From NCBI GenBank assembly GCA_963709345.1, contig CAVPVX010000007.1:672001-736000 (forward strand): 64,000 bases of DNA. The letters run 5' to 3'. The notes beneath the pieces are model-generated. The model ran no database searches, had not been told where the DNA came from, and saw nothing but the letters and a program-made list of their open reading frames with translations. The number at the start of each line of letters is the position of its first letter. Within the stretch, counting starts at the first letter, position 1. A program made the position numbers and the translations under genes. The DNA is from an uncultured Actinomycetes bacterium (GTDB lineage Bacteria; Actinomycetota; Thermoleophilia; UBA2241). Positions 19,254-39,560 of this stretch are shown here, in pieces.

Positions 19254-19280
19254 TCAACCGATCCCCTGTCACGCCGATAC
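19254..19280 (+). promoter_or_regulatory. sigma28-like promoter upstream of the CAP gene
   Basis: TCAAC-N14-GCCGATAC. Confidence 0.5.
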
Positions 19281-19354
19281 CAGCAAGTGTCAGGGACCGA
19301 CCCACAGGCGGTCCGACGTGCGTGAGAGCGCGACGCTGGGCTCGGAGGTGAGCC

Positions 19355-19888
19355 ATGAAGACTCGGTGCGGCATGGTAGCCATGATCGCGGCGCTGGCCG
19401 TGATGCTTCTCATGACCGTCCCGGCAGCCGCACCCGCCGCGGTCACGCTGAACTCCTACGAGCGACAGGTCGTGAAGCTCGTCAACAAGGAGAGGGCCAA
19501 GCGCGGTCTCTGCGCGCTGCGCGTCAACGCCAGTCTCGTCCGGTCCGCCCGTAGCCACTCAGCCGAGATGGGTACCGAGAAGTACTTCGACCATTCGTCG
19601 CTGAGCGGCGAGACCTGCTTCAAGCGCATGATCCGCCACGGCTACAAGCGCTCCGGCTACCGCTACTGGAAGGCCGGCGAGAACATCTACTACGGCGCCG
19701 GCATCTATTCGAGTCCCTGCGTCGTCGTGAGCGGGTGGATGAAGTCGCAGTCGCACCGTGCCGTCATCCTCACCAAGGCATTCCGCAACATCGGCGTCGG
19801 GGCGGTCGAGACCAAGGATGGATTCCGCGCCTGCGGCGGCTCCGTATGGTTCTTCACACTCGACGTCGGGCGTCGCATCGCCAAGTGA
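19355..19888 (+). CDS. Secreted CAP (SCP-like) domain protein
   Basis: Signal peptide; LVNKERAKRGL, ARSHSAEM, GENI, WMKSQSHRAVIL; GGAGG RBS. Confidence 0.92.
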   Translation: MKTRCGMVAMIAALAVMLLMTVPAAAPAAVTLNSYERQVVKLVNKERAKRGLCALRVNASLVRSARSHSAEMGTEKYFDHSSLSGETCFKRMIRHGYKRSGYRYWKAGENIYYGAGIYSSPCVVVSGWMKSQSHRAVILTKAFRNIGVGAVETKDGFRACGGSVWFFTLDVGRRIAK

Positions 19889-34362: not shown

Positions 34363-34922
34363 TGCAGAGTACCGCGAGCCCGGTCACGACCCGCGATATC
34401 GCCGCCGCCGCCGTCTTCGCCGCGATGATGGCGGCGGGGGCCTACGTGGCCATCCCCGTCGGCTCCGTGCCGTTCACGCTCCAGACGCTCTTCGTGCTGC
34501 TGGCGGGGATGGCGCTCGGACCGCGACTCGGGGCTCTGAGCGTCGTCGCCTACCTGGGCCTCGGCCTGATCGCCCCCGTGTACGCCGGCGGCGCCTCGGG
34601 CCTCGGGGTGTTGCTCGGACCGACCGGCGGCTACCTCTGGGGGTTCATCCCGGCGGCGCTGGTGGCCGGCGCCATCGCCGGCGCCGGCCGGGCCTCGCTC
34701 CCGCGCCTGACGGCCGCCGGCCTCGCCGGCCTCTGCCCCATCTACGCCCTGGGCGCCCTGTGGCTGGCGCTGCAGCTGGGCGTCGGCCCGCGCTCCGCGT
34801 TGCTGCTGGGGGTGGCGCCCTTCGTGTGGGCGGACGTACTGAAGGCCGTGGCGGCGGCGCTCGCGGCGCGCGCGCTGGTCAGCCTGCCGCTGGATCTTCC
34901 CGCGCTGCAGAGAGACCGCTGA
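34362..34922 (+). CDS. bioY: Biotin transporter BioY
   Basis: VPFTLQTLFVLLAG, GPTGGYLWGF; follows birA. Confidence 0.93.
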   Translation: MQSTASPVTTRDIAAAAVFAAMMAAGAYVAIPVGSVPFTLQTLFVLLAGMALGPRLGALSVVAYLGLGLIAPVYAGGASGLGVLLGPTGGYLWGFIPAALVAGAIAGAGRASLPRLTAAGLAGLCPIYALGALWLALQLGVGPRSALLLGVAPFVWADVLKAVAAALAARALVSLPLDLPALQRDR

Positions 34923-36309
34923 CGTCGGCCAGCGCCTGGCCGCGCAGGCGCAGATTGATGCGGCCGCGCTCGTACTCGACCGTGAAGTCGGTGGAACTGC
35001 CGTCGCGGTAAGCGAGATTCTTGTCGCGAAGCACGCGCGCCAGCGCCTCGACGTACTTCTCATCCAGCGTCACGCCGCCCATCATGCGGAGCTCCTTGAG
35101 CGCCTCGAATGAGCTCCGCGCCGCGCGGTACGGGCGGTCTGACGTCATCGCGTGGTAGCTGTCCGCAACCGCGAGGATCTTGCTCAGCTCGGGGATCGCC
35201 TCGCCTTGGATCCCGTGCGGGTAGCCGCTGCCGTCGAGCCGCTCGTGGTGATAGCGGACGATGTCCGCCACCTCCTGGTACGCGGCCAGGTGCGAGAGCA
35301 CCTCCGCGCCCTTCTCCGGGTGCTGGCGGATGAACTGCCACTCCGCGTCGTCGAGCGCCGTCGCCTTGCGCAGGACCGCGTCGGGAACGCCCACTTTGCC
35401 GAGGTCGTGGAGCAGGCCGGCGAGGTGCAGCGCCTGCTCCTGCTCGTGAGGCAACTCGAGCACGGCGGCCATGTCGCGGCAGTACATGGCCACGGCCGCC
35501 GAATGCTGCGCCGTGTACTCGTCCTTGCTGTCGAGCAGCACCACCATGGCGGCGGCCAGGCCGATGTTCATCTCGAGGTACTGGTCGCTCAGCTCCGTCT
35601 GCCGGGCCACGTGCTCGCGCTCGCGCACCAGCAGCTTGAACATGTACTGGCTCGCGAACAGGGGGATGAACAGGAGTGCGACGGCGATGATGCCGGCGGC
35701 GGCGTAGAGCGCCGCGATCCCGAGGCCCAGCAGCAGCAGCACGCCCAGGGACCGGACGAAGGGCGGCATCTCCTCGCGCCAGAACGCGGCGAAGTGCCGC
35801 TTGTACTTGATGCGCATACCCAGGCTCAACAGCGCCAGGTTGGTCGCCTCGAAGACGACGGCCGTCGCCGCCCCCGCCACGATGAGCCCGAACGTCACCT
35901 CGTCGAGCTTCACGCCGAGCGGCCCCAGAAGAGCGTCGAACACCAACGAGGCGAGAAAGACGGAGACCACGAAGTTCGCGGTGTTGTAGACGACCACCAC
36001 TCGCGTGCTCTCGCGCCAGGCGCCCCACAGCCCGACGCCGATGGCGACGGCGATCGCCGGCAGGCGCCCGGTGAACATGATCGCCAGCAGGATCGGCAGA
36101 TTGAACGCCGCCAGGGTGACCCTGTCGGAGACCTCCACGGCCATCTCGTCGGCGATGATCGCCAGCACGAGGAAGACGGCGGCGTCGCGGATGGCGGCCG
36201 GTGAGAGCGGGATCGGACCGGGGAAGAAGGATGCGTACGCGGCCACGAACCCGGCGCACAGCGCCAGGCTCGTGGTGAGCACGCGGTAATTACGCTCGGC
36301 TATGGACAC
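34879..36309 (-). CDS. Membrane-bound HD-GYP domain cyclic-dinucleotide phosphodiesterase
   Basis: About 6-7 N-terminal TM segments; HS, LLHDLGK, HHERLDGSGYP, DSYHAMTSDRPYR; GTG start with GAGGT RBS. Confidence 0.93.
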   Translation of the reverse strand: MSIAERNYRVLTTSLALCAGFVAAYASFFPGPIPLSPAAIRDAAVFLVLAIIADEMAVEVSDRVTLAAFNLPILLAIMFTGRLPAIAVAIGVGLWGAWRESTRVVVVYNTANFVVSVFLASLVFDALLGPLGVKLDEVTFGLIVAGAATAVVFEATNLALLSLGMRIKYKRHFAAFWREEMPPFVRSLGVLLLLGLGIAALYAAAGIIAVALLFIPLFASQYMFKLLVREREHVARQTELSDQYLEMNIGLAAAMVVLLDSKDEYTAQHSAAVAMYCRDMAAVLELPHEQEQALHLAGLLHDLGKVGVPDAVLRKATALDDAEWQFIRQHPEKGAEVLSHLAAYQEVADIVRYHHERLDGSGYPHGIQGEAIPELSKILAVADSYHAMTSDRPYRAARSSFEALKELRMMGGVTLDEKYVEALARVLRDKNLAYRDGSSTDFTVEYERGRINLRLRGQALADVSGLSAAREDPAAG

Positions 36310-36338
36310 GGCACCTCGCGGGGTGTGCAGTGCCCCGT

Positions 36339-36366
36339 CTATCGGCACCAAACCGGCAACGCTTGA
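36339..36366 (-). promoter_or_regulatory. sigma28-like promoter upstream of the HD-GYP gene
   Basis: TCAAG-N15-GCCGATAG. Confidence 0.55.
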
Positions 36367-36370
36367 ACAG

Positions 36371-36451
36371 TCAGTGCATCTTGCTGCCGCCGCCGCTCGT
36401 GACGAGGGCGAACAGCAGGGACGCGAGTGTCTTTTCGATCTTCTTGCTCAT
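36371..36451 (-). CDS. 26-aa signal-peptide-like small protein MSKKIEKTLASLLFALVTSGGGSKMH
   Basis: ATG with GAGGT RBS; basic, hydrophobic, then Gly-rich; shares AAG ATG CAC TGA ending with the upstream peptide ORF. Confidence 0.8.
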   Translation of the reverse strand: MSKKIEKTLASLLFALVTSGGGSKMH

Positions 36452-36482
36452 GAGCGGACCTCAATCGATCGACAACTCGCGG

Positions 36483-36557
36483 TCAGTGCATCTTCCCGCC
36501 GAAACGGATGTGCATCTTGCCACCGGACCTGATGTGCATTTTTCCACCGAAGCGCAT
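36483..36557 (-). CDS. 24-aa tandem-repeat peptide MRFGGKMHIRSGGKMHIRFGGKMH
   Basis: AGGAGG RBS; three 24-nt repeats differing almost only at synonymous positions. Confidence 0.85.
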   Translation of the reverse strand: MRFGGKMHIRSGGKMHIRFGGKMH

Positions 36558-36566
36558 GTTCCCTCC

Positions 36567-36593
36567 TAAAGGTTCTCGGCCTCATGCCGATAC
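36567..36593 (+). promoter_or_regulatory. sigma28-like promoter pointing toward the MFS gene
   Basis: TAAAG-N14-GCCGATAC, close to the FliA/WhiG consensus. Confidence 0.5.
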
Positions 36594-36873
36594 ACAATGG
36601 TTGACAATCGTGCAGCGACTCTACGGAGACACGCCGGGTCGTGCCTAGCCAACGCATTTGGACATAGTGGGCAAGTCTCTCCGTCTCAGTTGCCATTTTG
36701 GACAACGCTTCCCGCTGCCGCCTGCATCGCCGCTCGCGCCGTCACCCGCGGACCGGGACATGCGACCCCGCATGTTGTAGGCTTCGTGCGCGGTCGCGCG
36801 GAGATCGGCCGCAGGGGCACGCCAGCGCGCCCGCCTCGCCCGAGTCGCGGCGCGCAGCAAGGGGGAACACACA

Positions 36874-38100
36874 ATAGAGGCGAACGCCGCCGCCACGGAG
36901 ACACCGGACGCATCCCTGGCCCGCAACAGCAGCTTCCTGCTGCTCTGGGTGGGCCAGTTCGTCTCGCAGATAGGCGACCGGCTGGCCGCGCTCGCCTTTC
37001 CGTGGCTCGTCTACACGACCACGGGCTCGGCCGTAGGCACCGGCGCCGTGTTCGCTCTTTACACGCTGCCCTACGTCCTCTTCGGCGCCTTCGCCGGCGT
37101 GCTGGTCGACCGCTACAACAAGCGCAGCCTGATGGTCCTCGCGGACGTGGTCCGCGCGGGCCTGGTCCTGCTGGTGCCGCTCGTCGCCTCCCGCTCGCTG
37201 CCGCTGGTTTACGTGCTCAGCTTCGCGATGGCGACGGCCGGTGTGTTCTTCGACCCCGCCAAGCTCGCCATCGTCCCGGAGATCGTGCCTCGGGCGCGGC
37301 TCATGCGCGCCAACTCTCTGCTCGCCACCGCCGAGAACCTCACCGAGATCCTCGGATGGGCCTTCGCCGGCCTCCTCCTCGCGTCGGTGAGCACGACGAC
37401 CGCTTTCGAGCTTGACGCCGTCACGTTCGTCGTCTCGGCCGTGGCGCTGCTGCTGATGCGCTACCGGACACCCGCACACGCGGCCGTCGAGCGAGGCGTG
37501 CGTGCGCTCTGGAACGAACTGAGCGAGGGGTTCGCCTTTCTTCGCGGTCACCCCGGTCTGCGTGCCAACACGATCATGATCATCGTCTGCGTCTCGGGCC
37601 TCGGGGCCGCCTACCCCCTCACCTTCATGCTCGCCGTCCGCGTGCTGGGCGGCGGGACCAGAACGTTCGGCCTCCTCGAGGCGGCCATCGGAGCGGGATA
37701 CCTCGTCGGCTCACTCGCGCTCGCCGCTCTCGCGCCGCGCGTGCGCAAAGGCTGGACGATGGTCGTCGGACTGGCGTTCATGGGGGTATGCCTCGTAGCC
37801 GTGGCCGCCGCGGAGTCGGTCTGGCAGGCGAGCATCCCCTTCCTGCTCTTCGGGGTAGCCAACGCCGTCGCCCTGATCGCCGTCGACACGTACCTGCAGG
37901 AGGTCGTGCCCGAGGGCATGCTGGGCCGGGTGCTGGGCACGCGCTTCACGCTCACGCAGGGCACCTACGCGCTCTCGGTGCTCGTGGGCGGCGCGCTTGC
38001 GGGCGTCTTCGACGTGCGCGCCCTCTTCGTGGTCGCCGGGGCGATCGTCGCCATGTCGGCCCTCCTGGGGCTGCTCTCCCGCGACGTGCGCGAGACCTGA
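36874..38100 (+). CDS. MFS efflux transporter (MefA/EntS-like)
   Basis: RNSSFLLLWVGQFVSQIGD, GVLVDRYNKR motif A; likely ATA start at 36874 behind AAGGGGG. Confidence 0.88.
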   Translation: MEANAAATETPDASLARNSSFLLLWVGQFVSQIGDRLAALAFPWLVYTTTGSAVGTGAVFALYTLPYVLFGAFAGVLVDRYNKRSLMVLADVVRAGLVLLVPLVASRSLPLVYVLSFAMATAGVFFDPAKLAIVPEIVPRARLMRANSLLATAENLTEILGWAFAGLLLASVSTTTAFELDAVTFVVSAVALLLMRYRTPAHAAVERGVRALWNELSEGFAFLRGHPGLRANTIMIIVCVSGLGAAYPLTFMLAVRVLGGGTRTFGLLEAAIGAGYLVGSLALAALAPRVRKGWTMVVGLAFMGVCLVAVAAAESVWQASIPFLLFGVANAVALIAVDTYLQEVVPEGMLGRVLGTRFTLTQGTYALSVLVGGALAGVFDVRALFVVAGAIVAMSALLGLLSRDVRET

Positions 38101-38240
38101 CGCGCCGGCAGCTCCCCCAGGAGCCGGCCCTCCCGCGGCGGCTGCGGCGTCCCGGGTACAGATGATACCCTTGTGGCCATGTCCGTAGGGCGGCCGAAGA
38201 ACGCCGGGCCGAAGCCCTCGGGCGCGAACGCAAAGGCGCC

Positions 38241-39560
38241 ATGACCTCCCCCGGCACCACACAGACTTCCGGACTCCCGGCGACGCCACGCACGAGCTGG
38301 CTCCAGCTCGGCGTGGTCAGCGCGGCAGAGTTCGTGGTCTGGACGGGCTTCGGCGCGATCATGCCGTTCCTGCCCATCTTCCTCAGAGATGAGGCGCACA
38401 GCTCGCTGTTCATGATCGGTCTCATCTCCGCGATGTTCTACCTGGGTACGCTCCTGTTCTCCTCGCCCTTCGGCTGGCTCAGCGACATGATCGGCCGCAA
38501 GCCGGTGATGATCGGCGGCGTCACGCTCTTCGCCGTGGCGATGCTGCTCTTCACCACGACCATGAACCCCTGGTGGTTCGTGGTGTTCCGGCTGCTCGAA
38601 GGGGTCGGGACGGCAGCGGTGGCGCCGGCGGCCATGGCCTTCGTCGCCGACGTCACCACGGATTCCAACCGTAGCAAGTCCTACGGCATCCTCATGTCGG
38701 CGCAGTTCGGCGGGCTCATCGTGGGCCCGGCCATCGGCGCCATCGCCCTGCGCTTCCTCGGCGACGGCACCTCCGGCTTTCACGCCATCTTCTACTTCGG
38801 GGCGATCCTCGCGGCGCTGACCGCCGTGGCGCTGGTCGCCTTCATTCGCGAGCCGGCCCAGCTCCAGGAGCGTCGCCGTGCGCGGCGCGGAGCGAAGGCC
38901 GAGAAGCCGCCCTACGGCCAGATTCTCACGCCGGCCATCCTGGCCTTCCTGCTGGTCGGCTTCACCAGCCACTTCGCGATGGGCGCGTTCGAGGTCGTGT
39001 GGAGCCTCTACCTGCGCGACCTCGGCGCCTCGAACACCTACATCTCGGCCACGTGGATCGCCTTCAGCGTGCCGATGCTGTTCGCCTTCTTGGGCGGGAT
39101 CGTCGCCGACCGCTACAGCCGCTTCATCCTGATGTTCACCGGCTACACGATATCCGCAGCTGCGTGGGTCATCTACGGCACGACCACGAGCCTCGTGGTC
39201 TTCATCCTCGTCAACGTGATCGAGGGATTCGCAATCGCGTTCTCCTACCCGGCCAAGCAGGCCTTCCTCGTCCAGGTGAGCCCCAAGCGGTTCGTCGGGA
39301 CGGTGACGGGACTCGAGACGACCTCCATGCAGCTCGCCGGCCTGATCGGTACGCTGGCGGCGCCGGTCATGTACGGGTGGATGTCCGGCTACGTGATGGC
39401 CTTCGGCGGAGTCGTCAATTTCATCGGCCTGGCGATCGCCGCGCCGATACTCGCCCGCGCGTGGCGCCGCGTCCGGGCGGCGCCGGCGCCGGGAGCCGCC
39501 CCCGGCGAGACGGAGCCGCCGCCGGTGGCCGCCGCCCAGCCGCCGTTCGGAATCAAGTAG
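38241..39560 (+). CDS. MFS transporter (DHA1/TetA-like)
   Basis: GWLSDMIGRKPV, FRLLEGVG, GLIVGPAIG. Confidence 0.9.
   Translation: MTSPGTTQTSGLPATPRTSWLQLGVVSAAEFVVWTGFGAIMPFLPIFLRDEAHSSLFMIGLISAMFYLGTLLFSSPFGWLSDMIGRKPVMIGGVTLFAVAMLLFTTTMNPWWFVVFRLLEGVGTAAVAPAAMAFVADVTTDSNRSKSYGILMSAQFGGLIVGPAIGAIALRFLGDGTSGFHAIFYFGAILAALTAVALVAFIREPAQLQERRRARRGAKAEKPPYGQILTPAILAFLLVGFTSHFAMGAFEVVWSLYLRDLGASNTYISATWIAFSVPMLFAFLGGIVADRYSRFILMFTGYTISAAAWVIYGTTTSLVVFILVNVIEGFAIAFSYPAKQAFLVQVSPKRFVGTVTGLETTSMQLAGLIGTLAAPVMYGWMSGYVMAFGGVVNFIGLAIAAPILARAWRRVRAAPAPGAAPGETEPPPVAAAQPPFGIK

What the first reader, a model, noticed from the sequence alone, without database searches (positions are those of the whole stretch)
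34879..36557. Candidate new peptide-signalling system: two 'GG(S)KMH' micropeptides upstream of a membrane HD-GYP phosphodiesterase
Seen: two ORFs absent from the ORF track lie head-to-tail on the minus strand just 5' of the HD-GYP gene. They are MRFGGKMHIRSGGKMHIRFGGKMH (36557-36483, AGGAGG RBS) and MSKKIEKTLASLLFALVTSGGGSKMH (36451-36371, GAGGT RBS). Both end in the same Gly-Gly-(Ser)-Lys-Met-His-stop. The next gene has about 6-7 TM helices fused to an intact HD-GYP domain. Known: HD-GYP domains hydrolyse c-di-GMP/cGAMP, and peptide signals (Phr, AgrD, SHP) are typically encoded as tiny ORFs beside their receptor. Inference: the KMH-ending peptides are ligands or membrane partners that set the activity of this receptor, linking a peptide signal directly to cyclic-dinucleotide turnover. 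The divergent MFS (36874) is a candidate exporter. I know of no described system with this layout.
Basis: partly seen in the sequence, partly recalled or inferred. Interest (0 to 1): 0.92.

Follow-up and report, generated by a model that had tools for sequence, protein, structure and literature searches.

The report
Micro-ORF partners of MASE9 HD-GYP sensor
Two tiny conserved genes sit in front of a membrane-bound c-di-GMP-degrading enzyme, and the larger one belongs to an undescribed family of about 25-residue membrane peptides that accompany this type of sensor across the Actinomycetota, so they may be its long-sought partner or ligand.

Summary
Both micro-ORFs exist, and KMH-stop occurs only twice in the 3.1-Mb genome, both times here.

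The window and all 48 usable related Thermoleophilia loci carry at least one small ORF ending [KR]-[MLIV]-His-stop. 47 of these 49 rows carry two or more. Codon usage varies while the peptide is kept, and ORF2 has dN/dS 0.24.

ORF2 belongs to an undescribed, phylum-wide family of signal-peptide-like micro-ORFs. 42 of 68 profile hits in 301 genomes lie directly upstream of a MASE9 sensor gene. The downstream gene is usually an HD-GYP and sometimes a histidine kinase. The KMH tail is one family's version of a basic-plus-aromatic tail. ORF1 is a core-less, amplified copy of that tail.

The sORFs appear to have their own sigma-A-like promoter. A conserved WhiG (sigma-28)-type promoter separates ORF2 from the HD-GYP gene, whose start is at 36309. 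A second WhiG-type promoter faces the MFS genes. Short metatranscriptome contigs from four studies cover just the sORF unit.

My best reading is that the peptides act in trans on the MASE9 domain. Whether they do so as a membrane partner or as a cleaved ligand is open, and nothing biochemical is shown.

The parts
36618..36647 (-). Candidate sigma-A-type promoter of the sORF unit: -35 TAGGCA (36647-36642), 18-nt spacer, -10 TAGAGT (36623-36618)
   Evidence: In the alignment of 23 loci the -10 keeps the form TAnnnT (TAGAGT, TACCAT, TAGCAT) and a T(A/T)GSCR block lies 17-18 nt upstream. RNA-library contigs of relatives end at about 36582-36601, just downstream of it. Inference only; no TSS mapping.
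36567..36592 (+). WhiG/sigma-28-type promoter P1 (TAAAG-N15-GCCGATA) pointing to MFS1/MFS2. It overlaps the 5' UTR and SD region of ORF1 on the other strand
   Evidence: The strict regex finds it in 29 of 49 rows on this strand. It matches the consensus -35 TAAA / -10 GCCGATAA quoted in PMC8325347. It is one of 10 genome-wide matches.
36483..36557 (-). ORF1: 24 aa, three in-frame 8-residue units (M/I)R(F/S)GGKMH, preceded by SD AGGAGG at 36567-36562
   Evidence: Orthologues are single 8-9-aa ORFs, in-frame repeats of 2-4 units, or two separate copies, and always end [KR][MLIV]H-stop. Arg codons CGC/AGG/CGT and Gly codons differ between the repeats.
36371..36451 (-). ORF2: 26 aa with an N-terminal KK..K, a hydrophobic core, GGG, and the tail SKMH. 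It is the local member of the MASE9-associated micro-ORF family
   Evidence: The A1 profile hits 67 of 89 genomes of the order. dN/dS is 0.24 in frame, against 2.4 and 0.95 in the shifted frames. No Pfam or NCBIfam family matches.
36340..36366 (-). WhiG/sigma-28-type promoter P2 (TCAAG-N16-GCCGATA) in the gap between the ORF2 stop and the HD-GYP start
   Evidence: It is the most conserved block of the gap in 43 aligned loci. The strict regex finds it in 38 of 49 rows. The same motif precedes a PilB-like T2SSE+MshEN ATPase elsewhere in the genome.
34879..36309 (-). TM-HD-GYP phosphodiesterase, 476 aa. Residues about 1-235 form a MASE9-like helical membrane domain, followed by a long helix and the HD-GYP domain
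   Evidence: Pfam HD_5 4.9e-43; MASE9 21.6 bits, below the 24.3 cut-off. Start codon. Invariant H301 D302 and H354-P364 HHERLDGSGYP. AF2 model helices 3-28, 37-55, 70-99, 103-128, 140-169 and 173-205. Closest solved structures are 5z7c, 4mcw and 4r8z.
36949..39560 (+). Divergent MFS1 (MFS_1/MFS_3; real start probably upstream of 36949) and MFS2. Their link to the system is by synteny only
   Evidence: Pfam. Syntenic in the f1 loci. MFS1-like genes also lie next to the HD-GYP homologue in the f3/f4 loci L139-L142, but not in 13 f5 loci or 46 phylum loci.

Best explanation
ORF2 is a genuine micro-gene. Its 26-residue product is a single-span membrane peptide: a Lys-rich N-terminus facing the cytoplasm, about 16-20 hydrophobic or small residues, and a short basic-plus-His tail at the outer face. 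It acts in trans on the MASE9-like membrane sensor domain of the neighbouring HD-GYP enzyme, as an intramembrane partner or auxiliary subunit, and so helps to set c-di-GMP hydrolysis.

ORF1 is a lineage-specific derivative. It keeps the start and the tail but has lost the hydrophobic core, and here it is amplified three times in frame. It supplies or titrates the same tail and may be exported by the adjacent MFS_3 pumps.

The two sORFs form their own small, probably abundant, sigma-A-type transcript. The HD-GYP gene and the divergent MFS genes have WhiG (sigma-28-type) promoters. This places the enzyme in the c-di-GMP-controlled RsiG-WhiG circuit known from the related Rubrobacter.

Shown here: the ORFs, their purifying selection, their phylum-wide pairing with MASE9 genes, and the promoter-like motifs. 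Inferred: translation, membrane topology, binding to MASE9, any effect on activity, and the roles of ORF1 and the MFS pumps.
For: 1. Not chance: KMH-stop occurs twice in the genome, both here, and [KR][MLIV]H-stop is expected 0.002 times per 600 nt.

2. Coding selection:
- All 49 rows (window plus 48 loci) have at least one such ORF, and 47 have two or more.
- Lys is replaced only by Arg, using the codons CGC, CGT, AGG and AGA. The middle residue uses ATG, CTN, ATY or GTN. His uses CAC or CAT. The stop is TGA, TAG or TAA.
- ORF2 has dN/dS 0.24 in frame, against 2.4 and 0.95 in the shifted frames.
- 7 of 8 differences inside ORF2 in RNA-library contigs fall on third codon positions.

3. Link to the sensor rather than to the locus:
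- Family f5 has the HD-GYP at 39-48% identity (13 loci) with no BirA, BioY or MFS neighbours, yet 13 of 13 loci carry an ORF2-type sORF upstream.
- 20 of 29 MASE9 loci across the phylum carry such an sORF, against 38 of 2337 (1.6%) long ORFs in the window's own genome.
- 42 of 68 sORF-profile hits (E<=1e-4, 301 genomes) lie less than 900 nt upstream, on the same strand, of a MASE9 match. 11 of 17 others that I examined precede weaker MASE9 proteins.

4. It follows the sensor, not the output domain. Two loci (L177, L185) are MASE9-HisKA_3 kinases.

5. Specific residues inside the hydrophobic core are kept: S11, A15, G20 and G21 in A1, and L9 and G20 in A3. Galperin and Chou propose that MASE9 binds its ligand within the membrane (passages read).

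6. Contigs of 86-309 nt from four metatranscriptome studies cover only 36283 to about 36601, which is the sORF unit.

7. The WhiG-type motifs fit the consensus and the targets (type IV pilus genes and DGC/PDE genes) reported in PMC8325347.
Against: - There is no direct evidence of translation, membrane insertion or binding.
- The small-residue site before the tail (AGA, SGA, GGA, SGG) looks like a signal-peptidase site, which favours a cleaved product.
- Tandem identical sORF copies (L157, L159, L166) and an sORF transcript that seems more abundant than the sensor mRNA suit a secreted signal better than a 1:1 subunit.
- Core-less mini-ORFs cannot be membrane partners and remain unexplained. 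These are ORF1 here, MK(Y/S)xxW in three f3 loci, and two 8-aa ORFs ending KLR with no ORF2 in G424.
- ORF2 has decayed in G404 while the enzyme gene looks intact.
- 50 of 87 MASE9 matches had no sORF-profile hit upstream.
- The profile was built partly from loci of the same genome sample.
- The RNA evidence comes from assembled contigs of relatives, and DNA carry-over in those libraries is not excluded.
Confidence: 0.4

Rival explanations
1. Exported peptide signal. ORF2-type sORFs are Sec signal peptides cut at the small-residue site. This releases a 4-6-residue basic-aromatic peptide (here GSKMH or SKMH). ORF1 gives leaderless tail peptides that are exported by the MFS_3 pumps. The peptides act from outside on MASE9 as an autoinducer-like ligand.
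For: - The architecture is n-region MK(K/R), a 12-14-residue h-region, a c-region with small residues at -1 and -3, then a very short tail.
- The only library matches, all weak, are to signal-peptide-type models: LPAM_1 in 5 of 21, the LptM signal model in 6 of 21, and Phr_nterm in 2 of 21.
- Tails differ by lineage, as pherotypes do.
- There are tandem copies and in-frame amplification of the tail.
- Tail-only mini-ORFs co-occur with adjacent MFS_3-like genes in f1 and f3, while f5 and 46 phylum loci with Sec-type sORFs show no such MFS gene in the flanks held.
- ORF1 and ORF2 tails are identical in 33 of 47 rows. Excluding KMH/KMH rows, 7 of 21 are identical against 3.8 expected, shuffle P about 0.05, not corrected for kinship.
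Against: - MASE9 has short, poorly conserved outer loops.
- Conserved Ser/Ala/Leu positions and a conserved Glu in the n-region of ORF2 are unusual for a mere signal peptide.
- A 4-residue signal would be shorter than any known peptide pheromone (recalled).
- No cleavage predictor could be run.
- The MFS correlation rests on three or four lineages and on short flanks.
Confidence: 0.28
2. Cis-acting leader peptides. Ribosomes pause on the basic-hydrophobic-His tail, which resembles the +x+ motif of Erm-type leaders, or pause at its stop codon as on TnaC. This would control expression of the downstream ORF2 or HD-GYP on the read-through transcript.
For: - Single-unit ORF1 forms are 8-9 aa long, with a variable N-terminus and a fixed C-terminal tripeptide followed directly by a stop.
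- G424 has MRQSWKLR and MRKSWKLR, and f3 has 6-aa MKxxxW ORFs with very strong SDs.
- No terminator-like site was found between ORF2 and the HD-GYP gene, so read-through is possible.
- The resemblance to ErmDL and TnaC is recalled, not tested.
Against: - A conserved promoter lies between ORF2 and the HD-GYP gene.
- The fold of the 351-nt leader is no more stable than shuffles (z -0.55), and there is no Rfam match.
- Across the phylum the tail is followed by 0 to 5 further residues, so the stop is not part of the motif.
- A conserved hydrophobic core has no role in this model.
- RNA contigs stop about 70-90 nt after ORF2.
- sORFs occur as tandem identical copies.
Confidence: 0.12
3. The micro-proteins have a function of their own, for example as membrane-active or metal-binding peptides or as a small subunit of the MFS pumps. 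They sit next to MASE9 genes only because they share regulation.
For: - The sORFs have their own promoter and seem to form a separate short transcript.
- His, Met and Lys, or Trp and Arg, in the tails could bind metals or lipid head groups (inference).
- 6 of 17 examined non-adjacent profile hits have no sensor gene downstream.
Against: Pairing with MASE9 genes survives complete turnover of the other neighbours and a change of output domain. MFS genes are missing from most sORF loci.
Confidence: 0.1
4. The region is not coding. The AAGATGCAC repeats would be operator sites or an RNA element between two divergent WhiG promoters.
For: The motif lies between two divergent promoter-like elements. 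AAG-nTn-CAC-T is fairly constant at the DNA level.
Against: - All non-Lys variants use Arg codons that differ at up to three bases from the Lys codon.
- TGG never replaces the stop.
- Start codons and SDs are kept.
- Repeats stay in frame.
- dN/dS is frame-specific.
Confidence: 0.03

Closest known systems
Small membrane proteins that regulate membrane sensors (MgrB and SafA with PhoQ; recalled from the literature, not tested here)
   Same: A micro-protein with one hydrophobic span that is thought to act on the membrane domain of a signalling protein.
   Different: About 25 aa rather than 47-65. Encoded next to its presumed target. A new sequence family. The target is a MASE9 domain fused to HD-GYP or to a HisKA_3 kinase. 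No interaction is shown.
Signal-peptide-like peptide pheromone precursors of Firmicutes (Phr, SHP, enterococcal iAD1/iCF10 type; recalled; NCBIfam Phr_nterm scanned)
   Same: Tiny ORFs beside a receptor gene, with a basic N-terminus, a hydrophobic stretch and a short active C-terminal end. Tails are lineage-specific.
   Different: No RRNPP receptor and no Opp link. The presumed receptor is an integral-membrane MASE9 sensor. The match to Phr_nterm is only E 0.085 against a cut-off of 25 bits. The phylum is Actinomycetota.
WhiG (sigma-28-type) regulon with the RsiG-(c-di-GMP)-WhiG switch in Rubrobacter and Thermoleophilia (PMC8325347; passages read)
   Same: Promoters with -35 TAAA and -10 GCCGATAA in front of DGC/PDE genes and type IV pilus genes. 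This genome has a WhiG-family sigma gene, a PilB-like gene behind the motif, and no flagellin.
   Different: The targets here, a TM-HD-GYP and an MFS pair, are only predicted. The -35 is often TCAAG. The sORF unit wedged between the two promoters is not part of the described regulon.
MASE9-HD-GYP proteins (Galperin and Chou, bioRxiv 10.1101/2021.11.05.467447; HdgA of Streptomyces venezuelae)
   Same: The same architecture: a helical membrane sensor domain plus HD-GYP. The ligand is unknown and binding is proposed to occur within the membrane.
   Different: The window's protein scores below the Pfam cut-off for MASE9. The text of that preprint never uses the word 'peptide' (0 occurrences), so the sORF partner appears to be new.
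Regulatory leader peptides (Erm-type +x+ leaders, TnaC; recalled)
   Same: Length of 8-26 codons and a conserved C-terminal tripeptide next to a stop.
   Different: A promoter separates them from the enzyme gene. No alternative RNA structure was found. ORF2 has a hydrophobic core. The distance from tail to stop varies across the phylum.

Membership tests
HD-GYP phosphodiesterase (Pfam HD_5, PF13487) | Profile match above the cut-off | tested here: met
   147.3 bits against a cut-off of 27.2.
HD-GYP phosphodiesterase (Pfam HD_5, PF13487) | HD dyad and HHExxDGxGYP motif intact | tested here: met
   H301 D302 and H354-P364 HHERLDGSGYP are invariant in 22 sequences.
HD-GYP phosphodiesterase (Pfam HD_5, PF13487) | Hydrolysis of c-di-GMP or cGAMP | not testable with these tools
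   The closest solved chains are V-cGAP3 (5z7c, 6e-39), PmGH (4mcw) and PA4781 (4r8z). The substrate is not determined.
MASE9 membrane sensor domain (PF20972) | Profile match above the gathering score | tested here: not met
   21.6 bits against a cut-off of 24.3, E 2.3e-4, residues 68-235. The genome search at 1e-6 misses it. Several sORF-linked relatives score 21.6-26.9 bits.
MASE9 membrane sensor domain (PF20972) | Multi-helix membrane domain with short helices forming an intramembrane hairpin and charged residues in the core | tested here: inconclusive
   The AF2 model has helices 3-28, 37-55, 70-79/82-99, 103-128, 140-169 and 173-205 with pLDDT mostly 83-95. Acidic residues lie in hydrophobic segments. 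The topology was not verified.
WhiG/sigma-28-dependent promoter | -35 TAAA and -10 GCCGATAA about 15-16 nt apart, in front of a gene | tested here: met
   P2 is TCAAG-N16-GCCGATA and P1 is TAAAG-N15-GCCGATA. They are found in 38 and 29 of 49 rows.
WhiG/sigma-28-dependent promoter | The cognate sigma factor is present and transcripts start at the promoter | tested here: inconclusive
   A FliA_WhiG match lies in two adjacent frames (142.3 + 117.4 bits), neither above the 189.6 cut-off alone. There are no TSS data.
Phr/SHP-type secreted peptide pheromone precursor | Cleavable signal peptide followed by a short active C-terminal peptide | tested here: inconclusive
   The composition fits. Only weak model matches were found: Phr_nterm E 0.085 and LPAM_1 E 0.01. 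No cleavage predictor was available.
Phr/SHP-type secreted peptide pheromone precursor | Cognate cytoplasmic RRNPP receptor next to the gene | tested here: not met
   The neighbours are TM-HD-GYP, MFS, BioY, BirA and LuxR-type genes.
Ribosome-arrest or attenuator leader peptide | Same transcription unit as the regulated gene, with an alternative RNA structure that masks its SD or a terminator | tested here: not met
   A promoter-like element lies between ORF2 and the gene. The fold z-score is -0.55. No terminator was found in the gap.
RiPP precursor | A modifying enzyme encoded in the conserved neighbourhood | tested here: not met
   No such gene is among the conserved neighbours in f1, and f5 shares only the sORF and the HD-GYP gene.
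MASE9-associated micro-ORF family (defined here) | 19-32 aa, M-K/R start, hydrophobic core, Gly/Ala/Ser turn, basic plus aromatic/His tail, upstream of a MASE9-type gene on the same strand | tested here: met
   ORF2 scores 31.7 bits, E 8.2e-7, with the A3 profile, of which it is a member. It aligns over its full length. It precedes the MASE9-like HD-GYP gene.

The most novel reading that the evidence does not exclude
Actinomycetota possess a widespread, so far unnoticed peptide-MASE9 signalling system. Micro-ORF products of 4-8 active residues, with a basic and an aromatic or His residue at the end, are exported by Sec or by MFS_3 pumps for the leaderless forms. These peptides would be the missing ligands of MASE9 sensors. 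Through HD-GYP enzymes and histidine kinases they would couple cell-cell or envelope information to c-di-GMP and to the RsiG-WhiG switch. This would be a new class of peptide signalling outside the Firmicutes.
Probability: 0.25. Interest if true: 0.95.

Novelty: new variant of a known kind. Interest (0 to 1): 0.82.

Why it matters
MASE9 is a common membrane sensor domain of c-di-GMP enzymes and kinases, and no ligand is known for it. A conserved micro-gene sitting in front of it in many actinobacterial families gives a concrete, testable candidate for its partner or ligand. It would be the first small-peptide input described for an HD-GYP enzyme.

The finding also shows that gene callers miss a conserved gene family of about 25 codons. 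In addition, it adds a predicted HD-GYP feedback arm to the RsiG-WhiG c-di-GMP switch in the Thermoleophilia.

Tried and rejected
**Complex prediction.** The full-length HD-GYP alignment A2 was folded with the ORF2 alignment A1. The result was no verdict: scores 0.03 and 0.02 against a mark of 0.32, controls not run, and the partner is under 30 residues. This counts neither for nor against binding.

**RNA element.** Rfam at E<=10 gave only chance-level matches. The fold of 351 nt had z -0.55. I rejected a long-range pairing of UAUCGGCA/CUUUAG with CUAAAG/UGCCGAUA, because only the two promoter hexamer blocks are alike and the spacers are not.

**Terminator or sigma-70 scan.** No sigma-70 consensus promoter was found, and there is no terminator between ORF2 and the gene.

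**Internal-initiation idea.** I considered that a GGNGG SD plus AUG inside each repeat could give a tiny MH ORF. I rejected it because the residue before Lys varies widely and Met is often Leu, Ile or Val.

**RiPP and metal-binding (ATCUN-like) ideas.** No enzyme partner is present and these ideas could not be tested.

**Split-off first helix of MASE9.** Rejected, because the protein already aligns from profile position 33 at residue 68.

**Paralogue check.** A TM-domain paralogue in the same genome (C7:263940, about 31% identity) has no such sORFs within 800 nt upstream.

**Searches that could not be made.**
The other large libraries need 30 aa or more and were not tried.
- Supplements of PMC8325347 (lists of WhiG targets) and of the MASE9 preprint (Figure S5) could not be seen and may bear on the promoter and topology claims.

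**RNA runs.** The four runs hold only 5-7% of the sampled words. Parts of the stretch without cover (the HD-GYP body and the MFS leader) are not evidence of silence.

**Tail co-variation.** The ORF1/ORF2 tail co-variation test is weak (P about 0.05) and not corrected for kinship.

Full report
**The observation**

On the minus strand the window holds ORF1 (36557-36483, 24 aa) and ORF2 (36451-36371, 26 aa), each with a Shine-Dalgarno sequence and each ending in K-M-H-stop. ORF1 is three in-frame copies of a 24-nt unit.

In a six-frame translation of the whole 3.1-Mb, 69% G+C genome, KMH-stop occurs twice, both here. The wider motif [KR][MLIV]H-stop occurs 20 times in 6.22 million codon positions. 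That is about 0.002 expected per 600 nt. This locus is the only same-strand pair within 250 nt.

The downstream protein is an HD_5/HD-GYP enzyme with intact HD and HHERLDGSGYP motifs and a helical membrane domain. The membrane domain resembles MASE9 but stays under the Pfam cut-off: 21.6 against 24.3 bits.

**Conservation and coding**

The search for related loci returned 54 loci. I dropped two unrelated ones (L053, L054) and four without upstream DNA (L034, L035, L043, L044).

- The window and all 48 remaining loci have at least one small ORF ending [KR]-[MLIV]-His-stop upstream of the HD-GYP gene. 47 of the 49 rows have two or more. The two exceptions are L023, which has only 290 nt upstream, and L025, in which ORF2 has decayed.
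- ORF2 is recognisable with an ATG start in 43 rows and a GTG start in 3. It is frameshifted in L018 and L027.
- ORF1 varies. It is a single ORF of 8-9 codons, or 2-4 in-frame repeats of a 6-9-residue unit, or two separate copies (L015, L018).

The conservation lies in the peptide, not the DNA.
- The basic position uses AAG, AAA, CGC, CGT, AGG or AGA.
- The middle position uses ATG, CTN, ATY or GTN.
- His uses CAC or CAT.
- The stop is TGA, TAG or TAA and never TGG.
- For ORF2, mean dN/dS over 700 pairs is 0.24 in frame, against 2.4 and 0.95 in the two shifted frames.

Several MAG loci show frameshifts in the repeats. Many of them carry MFD-labelled record names, so I read these as likely assembly errors.

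**Distribution in the order**

All these loci are one syntenic locus: LuxR-type gene, BirA, BioY, then HD-GYP, ORF2 and ORF1 on the other strand, then two divergent MFS genes.

An ORF2 profile (A1) hits 67 of 89 genomes of the order, which is a single family, f1. This covers 11 of 11 genera and 25 of 32 high-quality genomes. Outside f1, the nine matches in a 401-genome phylum sample apart from the window's own genome and its same-genus relative G355 were all weak (E 8e-4 to 9e-3), and most lay inside long ORFs.

Of the 22 genomes without an ORF2 hit:
- 17 also lack an orthologue-level match to the membrane domain.
- 1 has only a fragment at a contig edge.
- 4 have the orthologue. Of these, one has a frameshifted ORF2, one has a divergent ORF2, one (G404) keeps a 5-codon ORF1 but has a decayed ORF2, and one (G424) has no ORF2 but two 8-codon ORFs ending K-L-R.

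**Architecture of the intergenic regions**

Alignment of 43 loci shows that the HD-GYP gene starts at the GTG/TTG at window 36309. The strongest conserved block in the gap after ORF2 is T(A/C)AAG-N15/16-GCCGATA.

The same bipartite motif lies in the opposite orientation in front of ORF1, pointing to the MFS genes. The strict pattern is found on the HD-GYP strand in 38 of 49 rows and on the opposite strand in 29 of 49.

It matches the flagellar/WhiG consensus, -35 TAAA and -10 GCCGATAA. According to passages I read in PMC8325347, that consensus marks WhiG targets in Rubrobacter, namely type IV pilus genes and five DGC/PDE genes. The same paper reports RsiG-WhiG pairs in the Thermoleophilia.

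In this genome:
- The loose pattern occurs 10 times, once before a PilB-like T2SSE+MshEN ATPase.
- A FliA_WhiG-family gene is present, but its match lies in two adjacent frames.
- No flagellin was found.

Upstream of ORF1, on its own strand, a TAnnnT block (TAGAGT here, 36623-36618) with a -35-like block 18 nt before it is conserved. I read this as the sORF promoter. It overlaps the opposite-strand WhiG-type promoter, so the two may exclude each other. That last point is inference.

**RNA evidence**

One search found four metatranscriptome runs from four studies, three of sediment and one of ice, each holding 5-7% of the sampled words. Laid on 36100-36900, their contigs are 86-309 nt long and 85-97% alike, so they come from relatives.

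- They cover only 36283-36582, with loose ends reaching about 36601.
- That span runs from just after the proposed -10 to about 70-90 nt past the ORF2 stop.
- 7 of the 8 differences inside ORF2 fall on third codon positions.

These are assembled contigs, DNA carry-over is possible, and no DNA run was laid beside them. I take this as a moderate hint that the sORF unit is a short and relatively abundant transcript, not as proof.

**Beyond the family**

With the membrane domain as query, 14 of 24 genomes of another Thermoleophilia family (f5, about 49% G+C) have a homologue. The whole protein is 39-48% identical.

- All 13 loci fetched carry, upstream and on the same strand, an ORF2-type sORF of 25-27 codons: MK.K(I/L)F..., then AA(S/G)GG, then tails such as RWTW, RWGH, SWKF or SWWY. 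One is cut by a contig end.
- None of the f1 neighbours is there. This was checked in 3-kb flanks of three genomes and in the roughly 1-kb flanks of all 13.
- The promoter block before the enzyme gene is of TATAAT type.

In family f3, three loci have instead a 6-codon ORF, MK(Y/S)xxW, with a very strong SD. It is followed by a WhiG-type motif and the HD-GYP homologue.

**The phylum-wide family**

Pfam MASE9 matches 72 of 301 sampled Actinomycetota genomes. I scanned 29 fetched loci, leaving out L174, which comes from an unpublished genome.

- 20 of the 29 have, 100-500 nt upstream on the same strand, an sORF of 19-32 codons. It has an M-K/R start, a hydrophobic core, a small-residue turn (AGA, SGA, GGA, IAG) and a tail ending in a basic plus an aromatic or His residue. 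Most have a clear SD, and three loci have 2-3 identical tandem copies.
- The same filter passes upstream of 38 of 2337 (1.6%) long ORFs in the window's own genome. With a tail rule added it passes 3 of 2337.
- A profile of 21 such sORFs (A3) gives 68 hits at E<=1e-4 in the 301 genomes. 42 of them lie less than 900 nt upstream, on the same strand, of a MASE9 match, and 37 of 87 MASE9 matches have such a hit. About 17 of the adjacent loci were in the training set, and at least 18 were not.
- Of 17 of the remaining 26 hits that I examined, 10 precede proteins with a weaker MASE9 match plus HD_5, one precedes a MASE9-HisKA_3 kinase, one precedes an HD_5 protein without a MASE9 match, and five precede nothing relevant. 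The window's own locus is also among the 26.
- Of 8 sORF-linked proteins scanned earlier, 7 are MASE9-HD_5 and 1 is a MASE9-HisKA_3 kinase. Two loci without an sORF are MASE9-GAF/PAS kinases.
- No Pfam or NCBIfam model fits the sORFs. Only weak signal-peptide-type matches appear.

**Interpretation**

The pairing survives complete change of neighbours, of promoter type and even of output domain. The sORF therefore belongs with the MASE9 sensor domain.

I commit to a trans-acting peptide, at about 0.68 for the two trans models together.

- **Uncleaved single-span partner (0.40).** I put this first because specific core positions are conserved, and because Galperin and Chou argue from short outer loops and buried charges that MASE9 binds its ligand within the membrane.
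- **Cleaved, exported tail peptide (0.28).** The small-residue site, the lineage-specific tails, the tandem copies and the tail-only ORFs keep this close behind.

ORF1 looks like ORF2 with the core deleted, M-R-F + GGKMH against ...SGGGSKMH, and amplified. Its role is open.

One correlation is worth testing. Leaderless mini-ORFs (f1, f3) co-occur with an adjacent MFS_3-like gene. That gene is divergent in f1 and f4 and lies downstream in f3. Loci with Sec-type sORFs only (13 in f5 and 46 across the phylum) show no such gene in the flanks held.

A cis-acting leader-peptide model remains possible for the mini-ORFs (0.12). It is weakened by the intervening promoter, the lack of RNA structure and the variable distance from tail to stop.

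**Novelty**

- Searches for HD-GYP with small ORF and peptide found nothing relevant.
- A search for MASE9 found two papers, one of them relevant. Its text has no occurrence of 'peptide'.
- Searches for c-di-GMP with small membrane protein and a six-term sORF/sensor search (listing only) found no description of this pairing.
- Subscription journals and supplementary files were not searchable.

The kind of system, a small peptide or micro-protein beside a membrane sensor, is known. The family, the sensor domain and the link to an HD-GYP enzyme and to WhiG-type promoters appear to be new.

Noticed in passing
G000:C7:111175 (outside the window), locus L092: A WhiG-type motif TAAAG-N16-GCCGATA lies 180 nt upstream of a 653-aa T2SSE + MshEN (PilB-like) ATPase. 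This fits the WhiG control of type IV pili reported for Rubrobacter.
   Followed up: partly
G000:C7:51093-51771 (outside the window), loci L077/L079: The best FliA_WhiG-family match is split over two adjacent reading frames (142 and 117 bits). This is either a frameshift in the assembly or a broken gene.
   Followed up: no
window 36689-36706: The inverted repeat GTTGTCCA-AAA-TGGCAAC, with a second TTGCCCACTATGTCCAA block, is conserved across f1 loci between the MFS1 start and the sORF promoter. It is a candidate operator for an unknown regulator.
   Followed up: no
window 36874-36949: MFS1 probably starts upstream of the GTG at 36949. The frame stays open, encodes a conserved N-terminus and follows an AAGGGGGAA SD, but no canonical start codon is evident there.
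   Followed up: no
window 34879-34922: The 3' ends of BioY (plus strand) and the HD-GYP gene (minus strand) overlap convergently by 44 nt.
   Followed up: no
window 19254-19885: Another loose WhiG-type motif (TCAAC-N14-GCCGATA) lies 75 nt upstream of a secreted CAP-domain protein.
   Followed up: no
L072 (G424:C4:204000-206600): In this 100%-complete relative, ORF2 is missing and two 8-codon ORFs (MRQSWKLR, MRKSWKLR) take the place of ORF1. They end in Arg instead of His.
   Followed up: partly
L126-L132, about 250-330 nt upstream of the f5 sORF: Conserved blocks (AACCGTCC-TTTACCCC...CTATCACTTCATACGTACC) and a stem-loop with compensating changes (CCCATCAGGACCAC...GTGGTCGTGATGGG) precede the f5 sORF. 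Their function is unknown.
   Followed up: no
L137 (G571:C1), about 186 nt upstream of the HD-GYP homologue: A 5-codon ORF, MGYRH, with an SD lies in a family f6 genome. This is a single case and may be chance.
   Followed up: no
L004, L013, L018, L020, L027, L030, L037-L040, L042, L045-L047: The repeats of ORF1, ORF2 or the HD-GYP gene are interrupted by frameshifts in these MAG records. These are most likely assembly errors, so the counts of intact ORFs are lower bounds.
   Followed up: partly
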